IMG/VR virus record: IMGVR_UViG_3300028952_000024 | Location: 1 to 7,662 of that record | Direction: 5' to 3' (one strand) | Length of the DNA: 7,662 bases | From: a virus | Lineage: Duplodnaviria > Heunggongvirae > Uroviricota > Caudoviricetes | Shown: positions 911 through 5,137 of the stretch, piece after piece | How the letters are laid out: the number at the start of each line of letters is the position of its first letter | How positions within the stretch are numbered: position 1 is the first letter of the stretch | Position numbers and translations under genes: made by a program | The notes under the pieces: model-generated | Databases searched by the model: none | Seen by the model: only the letters and a program-made list of their open reading frames with translations | Told to the model about the DNA's origin: nothing

Positions 911-970
911 AACCGCAGCACGTTCTTGCATACGACGTGGCTGCGGTTTCAACTCCCGCCAGCTCCACCA
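911..970 (+). repeat. att-like repeat A: hairpin arm plus a core resembling the 3' end of the tmRNA gene ssrA
   Basis: Positions 943-970 (GCGGTTTCAACTCCCGCCAGCTCCACCA) match the recalled E. coli ssrA 3' terminus (T-arm, acceptor 3' strand, CCA) with one or two mismatches. Sequence upstream of 943 shows no tmRNA features, so this is a partial copy and not a gene. Positions 913-946 form a 10-bp stem with one bulge and a 13-nt loop. About 45 bp of the arm recurs at 5082-5126. Confidence 0.5.
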
Positions 971-1097
971 ATCATGATTGGACGGTGTAAGGACAACACC
1001 AACAAAAACAGGAAGTTAGCAGTCTCAGCAGGACACCGACCAGACGGTGAGGAGACAAAAAAGGATACGCAAAGGAGCCGCGGCTCTCGAGTGACAC

Positions 1098-1128
1098 AAA
1101 AGCCCGCTTATGCGGGCTTTTTGTTTTT
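1098..1128 (+). terminator. Rho-independent terminator
   Basis: GC-rich stem AGCCCGC (1101-1107) and GCGGGCT (1112-1118) around a TTAT loop, extended by A:T pairs and followed by a T-tract (TTTTGTTTTT, 1119-1128). Confidence 0.7.
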
Positions 1129-1198
1129 CCCTTAAGTTCCTAGCCGCTTATCTATAACTATGGAAAAATGTTAACCCTGACTGTATGTTAACAAAGGG

Positions 1199-2413
1199 AT
1201 GTATATGTCGGTTTTTCATAACTGGCTGCTTGATATCGCAAGCGGGAATTACTTTATCTACATCAAACGCCTTTCTGCAAACGACACAGGCGCAACAGGT
1301 GGCCATCAGGTCGGACTTTATATCCCCTCAAATATCGTTGAAAAGCTTTTTCCATCTATCAATCATACTCGCGAACTGAACCCTTCAGTCTTCCTTACTG
1401 CGCATGTATCATCCCATGATTGCCCTGATACCCAAGCACGCGCAATTTATTACAACAACCGTTATTTTGGTAAGACCCGAAACGAAAAAAGAATTACGCG
1501 CTGGGGGAGAGGAAGTCCATTACAGAACCCTGAAAATACAGGAGCCCTCACAATTCTTGCTTTCAGGTTAAACGAACAGAACACTGACTGTTCCGAGGTA
1601 GATATATGGGTCTGCGTCAATCCCGATGAAGAGGATATCATCGAGTCTGCTATTGGCGAAATCATACCTGGAACCCTAATTTCCGGCCCTGCCGGACAAA
1701 TTTTGGGCGGATTGTCTCTTCAGCAAACTCCAGTAAATCATAAATATGTTATTCCTGAAGACTGGAAGAAGCGTTTTCCTTCTGGAAACGAAATTATTCA
1801 ATATGCTGCTGGCCATTATGCTAAAAACTCCAAGGATCCAGATGAGCAACTGATTGACCGTCGGCGTGTCGAGTATGATATTTTTCTACTCGTCGAGGAA
1901 TTACATGTTCTTGATATTATTAAGAAAGGATTCGATTCTGTAGATGAGTTTATTGCATTAGCCAACTCTGTCAGTAATCGACGTAAATCAAGGGCAGGCA
2001 AATCACTTGAACTTCACCTAGAGAAGCTTTTTATCGAGCACGGACTACGGCATTTCTCCACTCAGGCAGTTACTGAAGGTAATAAAAAACCAGATTTCCT
2101 GTTTCCTTCAGCAGAGGCATATCATAACGTTGAATTTCCTGTAGAAAACTTACGTATGCTGGCAGTAAAGACCACCTGCAAAGATCGCTGGCGTCAGATA
2201 CTGAATGAAGCAGATAAAATCCATCAGGTACATTTATTTACACTGCAAGAAGGTGTTTCTTCAGCACAATACCGAGAAATGAAAGATGCGGGTGTCAGAC
2301 TCGTTGTACCATCAACTTTACATAAAAAATACCCAGAAGCAGTTAGAGAAGAATTAATAACGCTCGGAGCATTCATTACTGAGCTGATAGAGCTTTACGC
2401 TGAACTATCATAG
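1199..2413 (+). CDS. ecoRIIR: type IIE restriction endonuclease, EcoRII family (CCWGG)
   Basis: 404-aa ORF, the length I recall for R.EcoRII. The N-terminal effector-domain sequence (SVFHNWLL...YIKRLSANDTGATGGHQVGLYIP) matches my recollection of EcoRII. The C-terminal half carries a PD-(D/E)XK-type signature (KKPDFLFP ... LAVKTTCKDRW). AAGGG lies immediately upstream of the ATG at 1199; a second in-frame ATG at 1205 is an alternative start. It is convergent with a Dcm-like methyltransferase. Percent identity was not computed. Confidence 0.9.
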   Translation: MYMSVFHNWLLDIASGNYFIYIKRLSANDTGATGGHQVGLYIPSNIVEKLFPSINHTRELNPSVFLTAHVSSHDCPDTQARAIYYNNRYFGKTRNEKRITRWGRGSPLQNPENTGALTILAFRLNEQNTDCSEVDIWVCVNPDEEDIIESAIGEIIPGTLISGPAGQILGGLSLQQTPVNHKYVIPEDWKKRFPSGNEIIQYAAGHYAKNSKDPDEQLIDRRRVEYDIFLLVEELHVLDIIKKGFDSVDEFIALANSVSNRRKSRAGKSLELHLEKLFIEHGLRHFSTQAVTEGNKKPDFLFPSAEAYHNVEFPVENLRMLAVKTTCKDRWRQILNEADKIHQVHLFTLQEGVSSAQYREMKDAGVRLVVPSTLHKKYPEAVREELITLGAFITELIELYAELS

Positions 2414-2418
2414 GCTGA

Positions 2419-2441
2419 CTCCCGGCTTAAAAGGCCGGGAG
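2419..2441. terminator. hairpin between convergent R and M genes (probable bidirectional terminator)
   Basis: The 34-bp gap between the stop codons (2413 and 2448) contains a stem of about 9 bp, CTCCCGGCT (2419-2427) pairing with GGCCGGGAG (2433-2441), around a 5-nt loop. There is no strong U-tract on either side, so function is inferred from position. Confidence 0.5.
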
Positions 2442-2447
2442 ATGTTC

Positions 2448-3881
2448 TCAAGGCTGCCCAGTCTTACCAGCATCAGCAGAAACAGCTTTGAGGATATAGG
2501 GTTCCAGAAGTCTGGCAACAGCTTCAAATACTGGCACCACAACTGAGTTACCGAACTGCCGATATGACTGAGTATCTGAAACCGGAATACGGAATGGTTT
2601 CCCTCCAGGTTTTTCAAATCCCATAAGGCGTGCGCACTCTCGGGGAGTCAGCCTGCGTGGTCGACGAGCCTGATTACTCTCATTCATAAAGTCAGCCTCT
2701 CCCGTTGCCATATCCCAACCACGATCAATAAGAATTTCTGATCCATCTTTGTGATATCTGGCAGAAAGTGTGCGTGCAATGCTTTCCTTATTCTCAGGAT
2801 TGACCAACCCAAAGCCAAAACCATTCCCCTTGGCTGCATGCTTTTTGGCGTAGTTATAAAGGTACTCCCATAGTTTTGGCGTAAGTATATATTTACTGTC
2901 GACTACAGGCTCCAGCAATTCACCAAATGATGGGCGGTGTTCCGGATAAAAACGACTGATATCACGCAAGGTAAACCCCTTGTGAATATTCAGATCTCGT
3001 CTAAATCCGACCAGAACAATGCGTTCACGATGCTGAGGCAAAAAATGCTTCCCATCGATAATCTTTGGATCGTTTTTTCCCATTTCTGCAGCATCGGCAA
3101 CTTCGTAGCCCAGCTCGTCAAGGGTCTCCATAATGACTTTGAAAGTTTTACCCTTATCATGGCTCTTCAGATTTTTGACATTTTCCAGCACAAAAATTGC
3201 CGGTTTTTTTGCTCGTATAATACGTGCCACGTCAAAAAAAAGTGTTCCTTGTGCTTCACATTCAAAACCATGCGCACGACCAAGTGAGTTTTTCTTACTA
3301 ACACCAGCAAGGCTAAATGGCTGGCACGGGAACCCCGCAAGAAGCACATCATGATCCGGCACATGCTCATCAATATATGCATAAGCATCCGTTTCCAATA
3401 CATCGGTTTTATCACTCAGCGTGACTTCCCGAATATCGAGATTGAATTTATGCACCTGTTCATCGTTAAACCAGTTGGCCTTGTATGTACGCACAGCATC
3501 TTTATTCCATTCACTGGTAAAAACACACTGGCCTCCAATGGCCTCAAAACCTTTCCGTATCCCTCCAATTCCAGCAAATAAGTCAATGAAGCGGAAAGCA
3601 TATTCCGGATGGTTTGCAGGTGGTTCTGGTAGCATCTTACGCAGAAGAGACTCTTCTACTGAAGTCAACGATTTTGGTAAACACTTGCCATTAATCCAGC
3701 GGTTAATGGTTTCACGGCTCCACTCATTTTTTCCGACTTTTCTCAGTAATTCAGCCACATACTTCTGATCATAGATTTCCAGCACTTTCTCGATAAGCTT
3801 TTTATCATTTTCCTGTCGCAGCTTTTCTTCCGCCTCGGCTTCCTTCAGCAGATGCTGTGCCAACACTTCAAATTCAGACAT
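2448..3881 (-). CDS. ecoRIIM: DNA (cytosine-5)-methyltransferase, EcoRII/Dcm family (CCWGG)
   Basis: 477 aa from the ATG that is the complement of 3879-3881, with GGAGG (complement of 3886-3890) 4 nt upstream. C5-methyltransferase motifs are all present: FAGIGG (motif I), FPCQPFS (catalytic Cys, motif IV), ENVKNL (motif VI), [23 protein letters not shown] (motif X). The N-terminus MSEFEVLAQ...LRQENDKKL...[21 protein letters not shown] matches my recollection of M.EcoRII and differs from chromosomal Dcm. Confidence 0.92.
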
Positions 3882-4287
3882 AATTCCTCCAAGGGGTCTA
3901 ATGGGTGAAACTTTATCACTCATTCAACCCAGAAGGAAATGTTTTATCTGGATATTTAAACAGTGACTACAACGTAATCTAGCACTGGTGATGCTTTGTT
4001 AGGCATAGAGAATCATTCTATATACGGCTAATGACAGAAAAACAGCAGACAAGTAGTTTGTTCATAAATTAACGCATACTATGTGTCTACGGTTTTCGAG
4101 ACCGGTCCAATCATCAAACGAAACATAAAATTAGCTCACATTATGAGGAAAAGTATCTTTTTTGTACTATGTAAATTCAAAGGCTTAGCCTCATTTCTCC
4201 GATGGTTTTCTCAACACTACTGGTTGTGAGCCCTTGCAATGATCATTAATATACGTCTCACAAATAATTCTTCATAGATATTGCAAA

Positions 4288-5061
4288 ATGGATATTACTG
4301 AGTTTCCTTCTGGAGTAATTGAACACCTTGGCTGGTATGTATACCGATTGATTGATCCGAGGGACGGAAGCACCTTCTATGTAGGGAAAGGCAAAGGTAA
4401 CCGCGTATTTGCCCATATGCGCGGTGAAGTGGCAGCGACTGATGATGACGAGTTACTGAGCAACAAGCTAAAGCAAATTAGAGAAATAAGGTTAGCAGGA
4501 CTTGAGGTTATCCATGTCATCCATCGACACGGAATGACTGATGAAAAGACGGCGTACGAAGTTGAAGCAGCACTTATTGATGCCTACCCTGGGTTAACGA
4601 ATATCATGAATGGTGCTGGCAGCAATGAATTCGGCGCCGCGCATGTCAAAGAGTTGATAGCAACATATCAACCCGAAACCATAATATTTCATCATAAAGC
4701 ATTAATGATTTCCGTTAACAGAAGTGCAAAGGATTCAGAGCTTTATGATGCGGTTCGATTTAGCTGGCGCATTAATGTCTCTCGCGCTAGCCAAGCAGAA
4801 GTCATTCTTGCTACTGTAAGGGGGATCGTTCGAGGGGTTTTCATTGCTGATAAATGGCTCAAATCAACACGTGAAAATTTCCCTACGATGAAATACTGGG
4901 ACGAGGATCCGGACTTTGAGGCAACACAAAGTTCTCGCTATGGTTTTGAAGGTCGAGAAGCCTCACCTGAAATAGCAAATCTTTATCTTGGAAAAAAAAT
5001 ACCAGATGAATTAAGAAAAAAAGGAGCTATGTCCCCGGTCCGTTACTCACCTAATTTTTGA
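4288..5061 (+). CDS. GIY-YIG nuclease-domain protein with an uncharacterised C-terminal domain, 257 aa
   Basis: The N-terminus carries a GIY-YIG signature: W16-Y-V-Y19 ... F30-Y-V-G33-K-G-K-G-N-R39-V-F-A-H43 (encoded about 4333-4416), with candidate catalytic E91 and N105 at typical spacing. The C-terminal ~150 aa has no motif I recognise. No Shine-Dalgarno is evident upstream of the ATG, and an in-frame stop at 4240-4242 excludes a longer N-terminus. Confidence 0.75.
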
Positions 5062-5081
5062 GTCTTTAAGTGATAAGCATA

Positions 5082-5137
5082 AACCGCAGCACGATCTTCT
5101 TGCATACGACGTGCTACGGTTTCATTTATCTCCGACC
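5082..5137 (+). repeat. repeat B: degenerate copy of the repeat A arm, hairpin-forming
   Basis: Positions 5082-5126 align with 911-951 (AACCGCAGCACG..TTGCATACGACGTG..CGGTTTCA) with a 3-bp indel and a few mismatches; the ssrA-like core is not conserved beyond GGTTTCA. Stem 5084-5093 with 5110-5119 (9 bp plus one mismatch) and a 16-nt loop. It sits between the convergent GIY-YIG and invertase genes and overlaps the last codons of the invertase. Confidence 0.45.

What the first reader, a model, noticed from the sequence alone, without database searches (positions are those of the whole stretch)
911..5137. RM plus GIY-YIG cargo bracketed by imperfect direct repeats, one ending in an ssrA 3'-end-like att core
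Repeat A (911-970) and repeat B (5082-5137) share about 45 bp including a conserved hairpin, and they bracket about 4.1 kb holding the EcoRII-like pair and the GIY-YIG gene. Repeat A continues into a 26-28 nt copy of the tmRNA gene 3' end with a T-arm mismatch. Partial 3' copies of ssrA are the known footprint of integrase-mediated insertion at ssrA (as for CP4-57 and Fels-2-type elements). Tandem or decayed islands would explain a degenerate second copy. The cargo block therefore looks like a module that entered by site-specific recombination and has lost, or never carried, its own integrase within this window.
Basis: partly seen in the sequence, partly recalled or inferred. Interest (0 to 1): 0.6.

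Follow-up and report, generated by a model that had tools for sequence, protein, structure and literature searches.

The report
Prophage defence-gene slot with fossil att sites
The repeats are copies of a hairpin element found in nearly every E. coli genome, in prophages and phage lambda, and they mark the edges of two separate anti-phage gene cassettes inside a larger prophage, so the ssrA-like piece is an old attachment-site relic and not the border of a small island.

Summary
Repeat A (911-951) and repeat B (5082-5124) are homologous hairpins, and A runs into a 27/28 copy of the ssrA 3' end (943-970). The interpretation mostly fails.

- **The hairpin is generic.** It belongs to a conserved lambdoid b-region element (window 755-949, lambda 24162-24352). 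It occurs in 5416 of 5426 complete E. coli genomes, at a median of 4 places.
- **Its canonical position** is directly against the 3' end of the pin invertase gene or a tail-fibre assembly gene.
- **There is a third copy.** A partial hairpin at 4074-4095 is fused to a tRNA-Ser (serU) anticodon-arm fragment at 4089-4108.
- **The 4.1 kb is two cassettes.** One is ssrA 3' end + ssrA-terminator flank + EcoRII-type R-M. The other is the serU fragment + PD-T4-3 (GIY-YIG). Relatives carry the second without the first.
- **The slot is variable.** Other relatives hold McrBC, a TrlF ATPase, AAA+HNH, ipaH or DUF4145 there.
- **The window is not at ssrA.** In the identical genome it lies inside a prophage bounded by thrW half-repeats, with its integrase at the far end.
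- **In O103:H2 strains** the same cassettes abut the real ssrA as attL of a whole prophage.

Verdict: an ordinary prophage defence hotspot with fossil att sites. The one curiosity is that two different att cores are joined at the same base of the hairpin.

The parts
1..477 (-). DUF6650-family gene, another accessory gene of the same prophage arm. In the identical genome it is preceded by an AbiTii-domain gene and the prophage's thrW-half att.
   Evidence: Pfam DUF6650 E 1.3e-5, 25.6 bits, just under the 27-bit curated cut-off. RefSeq annotation in TUM10008. No PADLOC hit.
755..949 (+). Copy A of the conserved lambdoid b-region element. It is homologous to lambda 24162-24352, which lies between ea31 and ea47. 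The right-hand ~95 nt (about 852-949) is the widely shared core, and it ends in the hairpin at 911-947.
   Evidence: 84.9% identity to lambda, and 209 phage records carry it. The query 860-947 is found in 5416 of 5426 E. coli genomes at a median of 4 places. Alignments.
911..947 (+).
   Evidence: Fold -20 kcal/mol. Across 22 distinct copies, 12 pairs are 94.7% paired, 5 pairs show compensatory changes, and 0 of 500 shuffles reach the observed values. G-U wobbles favour the + strand 17 to 7.
943..970 (+). Copy of the ssrA (tmRNA) 3' end: T stem, T loop and acceptor 3' strand with CCA. It is 27/28 identical overall and 948-970 is exact.
   Evidence: In O103:H2 strains this same position is the real annotated ssrA gene.
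971..1129 (+). Homologue of the native ssrA downstream flank. It includes an intrinsic terminator (stem 1098-1121 plus T-run).
   Evidence: Window 943-1125 is 90-95% identical to the region after ssrA in most E. coli. In K-12 that region is the CP4-57 attR flank beside ypjA. Terminator scan.
1205..2413 (+). EcoRII-type (type IIE) restriction endonuclease.
   Evidence: Pfam EcoRII-N 3.9e-61 and EcoRII-C 2.4e-71. PADLOC REase_II 1.5e-233. RefSeq CDS.
2448..3881 (-). Dcm-like C5 cytosine methyltransferase, partner of the endonuclease. The ORF could start as far up as 3923.
   Evidence: Pfam DNA_methylase 4.7e-78 and DNA_meth_N 7.1e-27. PADLOC MTase_II 3.8e-230.
4074..4095 (+). Copy C of the hairpin, right half only (GCATACTATGTGTCTACGGTTT). 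In strain L1PEag1 the same position holds a 107-nt copy with the whole hairpin.
   Evidence: 3 mismatches, 0 expected by chance. L014 7614-7720. L012 holds a full element here and no R-M.
4089..4108 (-). Fragment of tRNA-Ser(CGA) (serU), the anticodon arm, read on the minus strand. It is a fossil att core of a serU-integrating phage.
   Evidence: 19/20 match to CCGGTTTTCGAGACCGGTCC. In O157:H7 E32511 the whole serU 3' part precedes the same arm. That stretch matches annotated tRNA-Ser at 96.6% in almost all genomes.
4288..5061 (+). PD-T4-3, a single-gene anti-phage system with a GIY-YIG nuclease domain.
   Evidence: PADLOC PDLC04031, E 8.7e-140 over the full length. Pfam LEM-3_GIY-YIG 2.2e-14.
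5082..5120 (+). It is the element's canonical position, 1 nt from the pin stop codon, and is truncated on its left at the base of the stem.
   Evidence: Full-length elements abut pin in AMSCJX04, 81EVA and an e14-like prophage.
5122..5676 (-). pin-type serine DNA invertase, the first backbone gene to the right of the cargo slot.
   Evidence: Pfam Resolvase 4.8e-51 and HTH_7. RefSeq pinE.
5682..7662 (.). Invertible tail-fibre segment with two alternative fibre C-termini and two assembly genes. It is bounded by 76-nt perfect inverted repeats at 5682-5757 and 7587-7662.
   Evidence: Inverted repeat I1. Pfam Gp53-like_C and Caudo_TAP x2.

Best explanation
The window is the accessory arm (the equivalent of lambda's b region) of a lambdoid prophage with a contractile, Mu-like tail. 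The arm lies between the prophage end and the pin invertase and tail-fibre genes, and it is a hotspot where anti-phage genes are swapped.

The repeated hairpin belongs to a conserved ~95-190-nt backbone element. That element normally sits between a rightward gene (often dinI-like) and the convergent pin or tail-fibre assembly gene. It most likely acts as a transcription terminator or insulator on the + strand.

The cargo is two independent cassettes stacked in this slot:
- A copy of the ssrA 3' end, an ssrA-terminator flank, and an EcoRII-type R-M pair.
- A serU anticodon-arm fragment, a short arm, and PD-T4-3.

Each cassette begins with the att core of a phage that used a different integration site, and each ends at a whole or partial copy of the hairpin. 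The ssrA and serU pieces are therefore relics of earlier integration modules carried along in the cargo arm. They are not borders of a self-mobile R-M island.

Shown:
- The distribution of the element.
- Its canonical position against pin or tail-fibre assembly genes.
- The variable content of the slot.
- The two-cassette structure.
- The thrW-bounded prophage around the window.
- The use of the same ssrA core as a working attL in O103:H2 strains.

Inferred:
- The cassettes now spread by homologous exchange between the element on the left and pin/tail genes on the right.
- The original hairpin-to-att-core joints arose by non-homologous joining at the base of the hairpin.
For: **Distribution of the element.**
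- It is in 5416 of 5426 genomes at a median of 4 places.
- It is in lambda between ea31 and ea47, and in 209 phage records.
- The hairpin covaries.

**Same slot, different cargo, with the element abutting pin or a tail-fibre assembly gene.**
- TrlF ATPase.
- FRG + AAA/HNH.
- McrBC.
- Protein kinase + PD-T4-3.
- BRO-N/HTH/ImmA + PD-T4-3.
- DUF4145.
- ipaH.

**Two cassettes.**
- PD-T4-3 occurs without R-M in L011, L012 and L014.
- The third hairpin copy and the serU fragment lie between the two cassettes.

**Cargo identity.** PADLOC identifies REase_II, MTase_II and PD-T4-3.

**Location.**
- The window is 100% identical to TUM10008 over 1-5757.
- There it lies inside a prophage bounded by thrW-half repeats at L001 18515-18570 and 37431-37526, with the integrase next to the latter.

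**O103:H2 strains.** The real ssrA joins the same flank, R-M, PD-T4-3 and pin of a complete prophage. Its integrase and a second core are at the far end.

**Right flanks.** Among 141 hairpin copies the right flank diverges immediately after the stem into more than 10 classes.
Against: - No transcript data were examined. In the window's own copies only three T residues follow the stem, and the terminator scan did not flag them. In lambda there is no T-run at all.
- The history of the ssrA-like flank is ambiguous. It could be a phage-borne replacement 3' end, or bacterial DNA captured by aberrant excision. No second native flank copy was found downstream in RM13322.
- The two hairpin-to-att-core joints at the same nucleotide are not explained by homologous exchange alone.
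- The window's own genome was not available. Context is taken from identical or near-identical public genomes.
Confidence: 0.8

Rival explanations
1. First reader's model. The R-M plus GIY-YIG block is a small island that entered by integrase-mediated recombination at an ssrA-type att. Repeat A is one att arm, repeat B is a decayed second arm, and the integrase has been lost.
For: The ssrA core is exact. Presence/absence polymorphisms in relatives do fall at hairpin copies.
Against: - Repeat B has no core, and it is the backbone element's normal position against pin.
- The hairpin is ubiquitous.
- The block is two cassettes that vary independently.
- The window lies inside a thrW-bounded prophage.
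- The hairpin-ssrA joint precedes unrelated cargo in prophages at dusA and prfC and in Shigella.
Confidence: 0.04
2. Origin of the hairpin-to-att-core joints by secondary-site integration. The 3' stem of the hairpin plus its T-rich tail (GCGGT TTCATTT / GCGGT TTTTCTT) mimics a tRNA-type stem and loop: the ssrA T arm (GCGGG TTCAACT CCCGC) or the serU anticodon arm (CCGGT TTTCGAG ACCGG).

An ssrA-targeting phage, and separately a serU-targeting phage, integrated into this pseudo-site inside a resident related prophage. Homologous deletion between the two tandem phage bodies then left only the incoming phage's att core, arm and cargo stacked in front of the resident pin gene.
For: - Both joints fall exactly at the stem/loop boundary of the att core, and a complete stem-loop-stem core is retained at each joint (sequence).
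- The O103:H2 prophage shows that a phage with this core, flank and R-M arm does integrate at ssrA.
- The commonest right flank of the hairpin (TTCATTT, the pin class, 39 of the 141 copies classified) shares 5 of 7 bases with the ssrA T loop.
Against: - No reciprocal joint or tandem intermediate was found.
- The match of the pseudo-site to the serU loop is weak (2-3 of 7).
- Each joint may have arisen only once, so two events at one position could reflect microhomology alone.
- No arm-type sites were examined.
Confidence: 0.25
3. Origin of the joints by palindrome-stimulated illegitimate recombination. The 37-nt imperfect palindrome is a fragile site, through hairpin or cruciform cleavage or replication slippage. 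Breaks at its base or loop are repaired by microhomology joining (CGGTTT), so unrelated DNA is repeatedly joined there.
For: - All four breakpoints in the window sit on landmarks of the hairpin: its 5' base (5082), its loop (4074) and its 3' base (947 and 4095).
- More than 10 unrelated right flanks begin immediately after the stem in 141 copies, and several left contexts end just before the ~95-nt core.
- Microhomology of 7-9 nt exists with both att cores.
Against: - It does not explain why both captured segments start precisely at tRNA-type att cores and not at random DNA.
- There is no experimental evidence for fragility of this sequence.
- Many right-flank classes may be old variants spread by homologous exchange and not independent breaks.
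Confidence: 0.3
4. The hairpin-ssrA core site at 941-970 is still functional. It would be a phage-borne landing site or a working attP half, so that ssrA-targeting islands or satellites can integrate into the prophage, or the prophage can move to ssrA.
For: - The core is undecayed in this lineage (23/23), whereas other lineages show decayed versions.
- A P4-like integrase lies on the opposite strand just to the left of the element in L100, L102 and L014.
- The O103:H2 arrangement shows the same core in use at ssrA.
Against: - No island is seen inserted at this core in any locus examined. Cargo always follows the terminator flank, not the core.
- The window and its identical genome have no ssrA-type integrase nearby.
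- Decay in other lineages argues against general selection.
Confidence: 0.07

Closest known systems
Phage lambda b region, the non-essential arm between attP and the tail-fibre genes (ea59, ea31, ea47), and lambdoid morons
   Same: The position relative to tail-fibre genes is the same. The conserved element is the same (lambda 24162-24352, 84.9% identity). One relative (81EVA) even carries an AAA ATPase + HNH pair before the element, the same annotations and order as lambda's ea59/ea31 (homology to ea59/ea31 was not tested). Gene content is variable and dispensable.
   Different: Here a pin invertase and an invertible fibre segment follow the element. The cargo is an R-M pair plus PD-T4-3. The arm carries relics of ssrA and serU attachment sites, which lambda does not.
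e14 cryptic prophage of E. coli K-12 (icd-integrated; ...tfaE-pinE-mcrA-attR)
   Same: pin is about 92% identical at the DNA level. There is a defence gene (mcrA, or McrBC in an e14-like relative) in the slot between pin and the prophage end. The same element abuts pin in the e14-like prophage of WCHEC020032.
   Different: The integration site differs (icd against thrW or ssrA), the cargo differs, and the K-12 match starts at the pin stop with no hairpin match reported.
Defence hotspots of P2-like prophages and P4-like satellites (Rousset et al. 2022, cited in PMC11364771; Vassallo et al. 2022, PMC9519451)
   Same: It is a fixed position in a prophage backbone, flanked by conserved genes, where many different anti-phage systems replace one another. 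PD-T4-3 comes from the Vassallo screen.
   Different: The phage family and the slot are different. The cassette edges coincide with a repeated hairpin element and with att-core relics, which I do not know to have been described for the P2 and P4 hotspots.
ssrA-integrated elements that leave a partial ssrA 3' copy
   Same: The 23-nt core is the same. The K-12 CP4-57 attR carries a decayed core followed by the same ~155-bp flank. The O103:H2 relatives are true ssrA lysogens.
   Different: In the window the copy is not at the ssrA locus, has no partner copy, and is preceded by a phage element and not by island DNA. It is a relic inside a thrW prophage.
Integron gene cassettes (gene + hairpin attC)
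   Same: There is a superficial likeness: an array of cassettes, each followed by an imperfect hairpin repeat.
   Different: There is no IntI-type integrase, and the hairpins are copies of one sequence with ordinary covariation. Cassettes contain several genes in both orientations, and the joints carry tRNA-type att cores. It is not a member.

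Membership tests
att footprint of an ssrA-integrated island bracketing the cargo | Partial copy of the host ssrA 3' end at one border. | tested here: met
   948-970 is exact and 943-970 is 27/28 against annotated ssrA.
att footprint of an ssrA-integrated island bracketing the cargo | Second copy of the core (intact ssrA or a direct repeat) at the other border of the same module. 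| tested here: not met
   There is no other match in the window at up to 3 mismatches. The flank of repeat B is pin coding sequence.
att footprint of an ssrA-integrated island bracketing the cargo | The locus lies at ssrA, with a cognate integrase adjacent. | tested here: not met
   The identical genome places it at the thrW/paoD locus, inside thrW-half repeats with a thrW-type integrase. This is met only in O103:H2 relatives, and there for the whole prophage.
att footprint of an ssrA-integrated island bracketing the cargo | The repeat arm is specific to the att region and not a dispersed repeat. | tested here: not met
   It is in 5416 of 5426 genomes at a median of 4 places, and in 209 phage records including lambda.
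Prophage defence/moron hotspot (lambdoid b-region type) | Fixed position between conserved backbone landmarks of related prophages. | tested here: met
   The slot always lies between the prophage end or element and pin or the tail-fibre assembly gene.
Prophage defence/moron hotspot (lambdoid b-region type) | Different, unrelated gene sets occupy the position in different genomes. | tested here: met
   R-M, PD-T4-3, TrlF, FRG+AAA/HNH, McrBC, kinase, BRO-N/ImmA, DUF4145 and ipaH.
Prophage defence/moron hotspot (lambdoid b-region type) | The occupants include recognised anti-phage systems. | tested here: met
   PADLOC REase_II 1.5e-233, MTase_II 3.8e-230 and PD-T4-3 8.7e-140. Activity was not tested.
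EcoRII-type (type IIE) restriction-modification system | Endonuclease with EcoRII N-terminal effector and C-terminal catalytic domains, beside a C5 cytosine methyltransferase. | tested here: met
   Pfam hits. The genes are convergent at 1205-2413 (+) and 2448-3881 (-).
EcoRII-type (type IIE) restriction-modification system | CCWGG specificity and a requirement for two sites. | not testable with these tools
   This needs biochemistry or methylome data.
PD-T4-3 | Full-length match to the family profile. | tested here: met
   PDLC04031, residues 1-256 against profile 1-255 of 256, E 8.7e-140.
Intrinsic (Rho-independent) terminator | GC-rich stem-loop conserved by covariation. | tested here: met
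   The wobble asymmetry favours the + strand.
Intrinsic (Rho-independent) terminator | A run of T immediately after the stem. | tested here: inconclusive
   It is present in the O157 dinI copy (TTTTTCTTTTT) and in K-12 Qin. Window copies A and B have only TTT and were not flagged by the scan. It is absent in lambda.
Integron cassette array | IntI integrase and attC-type sites. | tested here: not met
   The only recombinase in the window is a serine invertase. The repeats are copies of one phage element.

The most novel reading that the evidence does not exclude
The conserved hairpin at the end of the lambdoid cargo arm is a preferred joining point, either as a pseudo-attachment site or as a fragile palindrome. 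Phages that target tRNA or tmRNA genes insert there into resident prophages. After the duplicated phage body is lost, they leave their att core and defence genes behind. Lambdoid prophages would thus build integron-like stacks of defence cassettes without an integron integrase.
Probability: 0.2. Interest if true: 0.6.

Novelty: new member of a known kind. Interest (0 to 1): 0.3.

Why it matters
Mostly this is a correction. A partial ssrA copy next to a repeat is not enough to call an integrase-borne island. The same 45-bp arm will be met in almost every E. coli genome, at the tail-fibre end of lambdoid prophages.

It also documents a defence hotspot next to the pin invertase in e14-like and Mu-tailed lambdoid prophages. 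At least nine different gene sets occupy it, including EcoRII-type R-M and PD-T4-3. That is useful for mining further anti-phage genes.

If the hairpin proves to be a preferred joining point for incoming phages, it would give a concrete mechanism for how prophage cargo arms accumulate cassettes.

Tried and rejected
- **Known RNA family.** Rfam gave only weak sub-threshold hits. The 3' hairpin of the Shigella sRNA CssrB matched on the minus strand at 24 bits against a gathering score of 76. Terminator look-alikes matched at 1069-1149. ARAGORN found no tRNA or tmRNA gene in the window or in the loci tested.
- **Left flank of the core as the phage P arm.** I asked whether 755-947 is the P arm of the O103:H2 phage's attP. 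It is not. That prophage's attR reads ...AAAAACAAATGGACGCTGG-core, with no element.
- **The 155-bp flank as purely phage DNA.** Rejected, because it matches the native ssrA downstream region of most E. coli and the K-12 CP4-57 attR.
- **Displaced native flank in RM13322.** I searched 87 kb beyond the O103 prophage for a second copy and found none. The question of phage-borne flank against captured bacterial flank stays open.
- **Integrase beside the element.** Integrases occur to its left in only some loci, and in both orientations. There is no consistent int-element module.
- **Integron-like reading.** Considered and rejected for lack of IntI and attC features.

Full report
**What is in the window.** The genes, left to right, are:
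- a DUF6650 gene (1-477, minus strand);
- an EcoRII-type endonuclease (1205-2413, plus strand);
- a Dcm-like C5 methyltransferase (2448-3881, minus strand);
- a GIY-YIG protein that is a full-length match to the anti-phage system PD-T4-3 (4288-5061, plus strand);
- a pin-type serine invertase (5122-5676, minus strand);
- an invertible tail-fibre segment bounded by 76-nt perfect inverted repeats (5682-5757 and 7587-7662).

This is the tail-fibre end of a prophage.

**Checking the observation.** Repeats A and B are real. BLAST aligns 911-951 with 5082-5124 at 88.6% with one 3-nt indel. Both fold as hairpins.

Repeat A runs into GCGGTTTCAACTCCCGCCAGCTCCACCA (943-970). This is 27/28 identical to the annotated E. 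coli ssrA 3' end, and the last 23 nt are exact and unique in the window. The description is therefore confirmed.

Three things were missed:
- A third, partial copy of the hairpin lies at 4074-4095.
- It overlaps a 19/20 match to the anticodon arm of tRNA-Ser(CGA), serU, read on the minus strand (4089-4108).
- Homology to the ssrA locus continues to about 1129. It covers the ~155-bp native flank and terminator that follow ssrA in most E. coli. In K-12 that flank lies at the CP4-57 attR beside ypjA.

**Where the window sits.** Strain TUM10008 is 100% identical over 1-5757. There the region is not at ssrA. It lies next to paoD and the yagP pseudogene.

The annotated "tRNA-Ser, 112 nt" beside the far-end integrase is really the 3' half of thrW. 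A second copy of that thrW half lies 1.4 kb to the left of the window (L001 18515-18570 and 37431-37526). The whole window is therefore inside a thrW-integrated prophage whose integrase is at the other end.

**What the hairpin is.** The 88 nt at 860-947 occur in 5416 of 5426 complete E. coli genomes, at a median of 4 places per genome.

The longer element 755-949 is 84.9% identical to phage lambda 24162-24352, in the b region between ea31 and ea47. It is present in 209 phage records.

Other copies examined lie:
- at the left end of Qin in K-12;
- after a dinI-like gene in the O157 ssrA prophage;
- in the ecpE-ykgJ intergenic region of the core chromosome.

In 22 distinct copies the 12-pair stem is 94.7% paired, and five pairs show compensatory changes. 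No shuffle out of 500 reaches the observed values. G-U wobbles favour the plus strand 17 to 7. Some copies carry a T-run after the stem.

I read it as a terminator or insulator for rightward transcripts that converge on pin or the tail-fibre assembly gene. That function is inferred, not shown.

**The slot is a hotspot.** In related prophages the full element lies directly against the 3' end of pin or a tail-fibre assembly gene. What lies to its left differs from genome to genome:

| Genome (locus) | Cargo in the slot |
|---|---|
| AMSCJX04 (same chromosomal locus) | TrlF ATPase |
| 81EVA | FRG + AAA ATPase/HNH |
| e14-like prophage (WCHEC020032) | McrBC |
| MS 119-7 | protein kinase, then PD-T4-3 |
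| L1PEag1 | BRO-N/HTH/ImmA, then PD-T4-3 |
| LR-46 (prophage at dusA) | DUF4145 |
| Shigella flexneri prophage | ipaH |

K-12 e14 carries mcrA in this position; that is from my own knowledge, not a tool result.

This matches the known pattern of prophage defence hotspots (PMC9519451), applied here to the lambdoid cargo arm.

**Two cassettes, not one.**
- MS 119-7 has element - serU core - arm - PD-T4-3 - hairpin B - pin, with no R-M.
- O157:H7 E32511 has the whole serU 3' part in front of the same arm. That stretch matches annotated tRNA-Ser at 96.6% in nearly all genomes.
- L1PEag1 has element A - ssrA core - flank, then different genes in place of R-M. A 107-nt element copy, the serU core and PD-T4-3 follow.

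The window therefore reads: element/hairpin A | ssrA core - ssrA flank - R - M | hairpin C | serU core - arm - PD-T4-3 | hairpin B | pin.

**The ssrA core in relatives.** In O103:H2 strains such as RM13322, the real ssrA is joined at 943-970 to the same flank, R-M, PD-T4-3 and pin. These belong to a complete prophage with head, tail, lysis and immunity genes. A tyrosine integrase lies at the far end, together with a second core preceded by nine more ssrA-like bases. There the core is the attL of the whole phage.

The composite dinI - element - ssrA core - flank, often with a decayed core, also occurs in prophages at dusA and prfC and in a Shigella prophage, each with different cargo after the flank. 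The hairpin-to-core joint is therefore old and widespread. It says nothing about how R-M entered this genome.

**How it most likely works.** Shown: the slot, the element, the two cassettes and the relic att cores.

Inferred: cassettes now move between related prophages by homologous exchange, using the element on the left and pin/tail genes on the right. This is the classical modular exchange of lambdoid phages, stated from general knowledge. It would also explain why a genome ends up with direct repeats of the hairpin around each cassette.

The first formation of the two hairpin-to-core joints needs a non-homologous step. Both joints fall at the stem/loop boundary of a tRNA-type arm:
- GCGGT|TTCAACT|CCCGC for ssrA;
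- ACGGT|TTTCGAG|ACCGG for serU.

All four breakpoints in the window sit on landmarks of the hairpin: its 5' base (5082), its loop (4074) and its 3' base (947 and 4095). Among 141 copies the right flank diverges immediately after the stem into more than ten classes.

I see two mechanisms and cannot separate them with these tools:
- integrase-mediated insertion into the hairpin as a pseudo-site, followed by loss of the duplicated phage body;
- palindrome-stimulated microhomology joining.

The origin of the ssrA flank is also open. It may be a phage-borne replacement 3' end, or bacterial DNA picked up by aberrant excision. No displaced native copy was found downstream in RM13322.

**Comparison with what is known.** The region works like lambda's b region, like e14's pin-mcrA end, and like the P2/P4 defence hotspots. 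As an ssrA-att-bracketed island it fails three of four defining features: a partner core, location at ssrA with a cognate integrase, and an arm specific to the att region. It is not an integron-like array in the strict sense.

**Verdict.** This is an ordinary, well-populated prophage defence slot carrying two known systems and fossil att sites. The residual interest lies in the recurrent use of one hairpin as the joining point for att-core-led cassettes.

Noticed in passing
window 5682-7662: The window ends exactly at the outer edge of the right 76-nt inverted repeat of the pin-controlled invertible tail-fibre segment. The identical genome TUM10008 matches only up to 5757 and then continues differently. 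So the segment is inverted or differently composed there, and the window may be a contig that broke at the repeat.
   Followed up: partly
window ~757-845; lambda L015 ~4505-4590: The left part of the long form of the element resembles a decayed, full-length tRNA-Pro(UGG) gene. This rests on my recollection of proM (for example GGAGGTTCAAATCCTCTC in the e14-like copy). ARAGORN and Rfam do not call it, so this is a lead and not a result.
   Followed up: partly
L001 37478-37589 (TUM10008); L009 5931-6005; L012 8098-8184: There are RefSeq annotation slips. A 112-nt 'tRNA-Ser' is really the 3' half of thrW joined to unrelated DNA. The hairpin element is repeatedly annotated as a 'capsid protein' pseudogene on the minus strand.
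   Followed up: yes
L001 11468-11560 (ecpE-ykgJ intergenic region): A copy of a dinI C-terminal remnant plus the element sits in the core chromosome, away from any prophage genes in the stretch examined. Its hairpin keeps pairing through compensatory changes (GCGGTACG/TGTACCGC).
   Followed up: partly
L100 10422-11636; L102 7367-7642; L014 1532-2701: A P4/IntA-like tyrosine integrase (33-38% identical to the CP4-57-type integrase) lies on the opposite strand to the left of the element-ssrA core junction in three loci. The gap is about 0.2-0.6 kb in L100 and L102 and about 2.2 kb in L014. This hints at an int-att module that used this core.
   Followed up: partly
L005 5867-6065; L015 6339-6537; L007 4142-4370: The Rfam family IS009 (a candidate sRNA) matches above or near its gathering score inside tail-fibre assembly genes of Qin, lambda and the O157 prophage.
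   Followed up: no
L009 3594-5691 (81EVA) versus lambda ea59/ea31: The AAA ATPase + HNH endonuclease pair before the element in 81EVA has the same gene order and annotation as lambda ea59-ea31 before the same element. Lambda's own b-region genes may therefore be one occupant of this hotspot.
   Followed up: no
window 4900-5760 versus plasmids: 26 of the 3973 matches to the PD-T4-3/pin region lie on plasmid records, for example NZ_AP023209.1 (68.5 kb), where the match runs to the end of the record. These may be phage-plasmids or misassembled prophage contigs.
   Followed up: no
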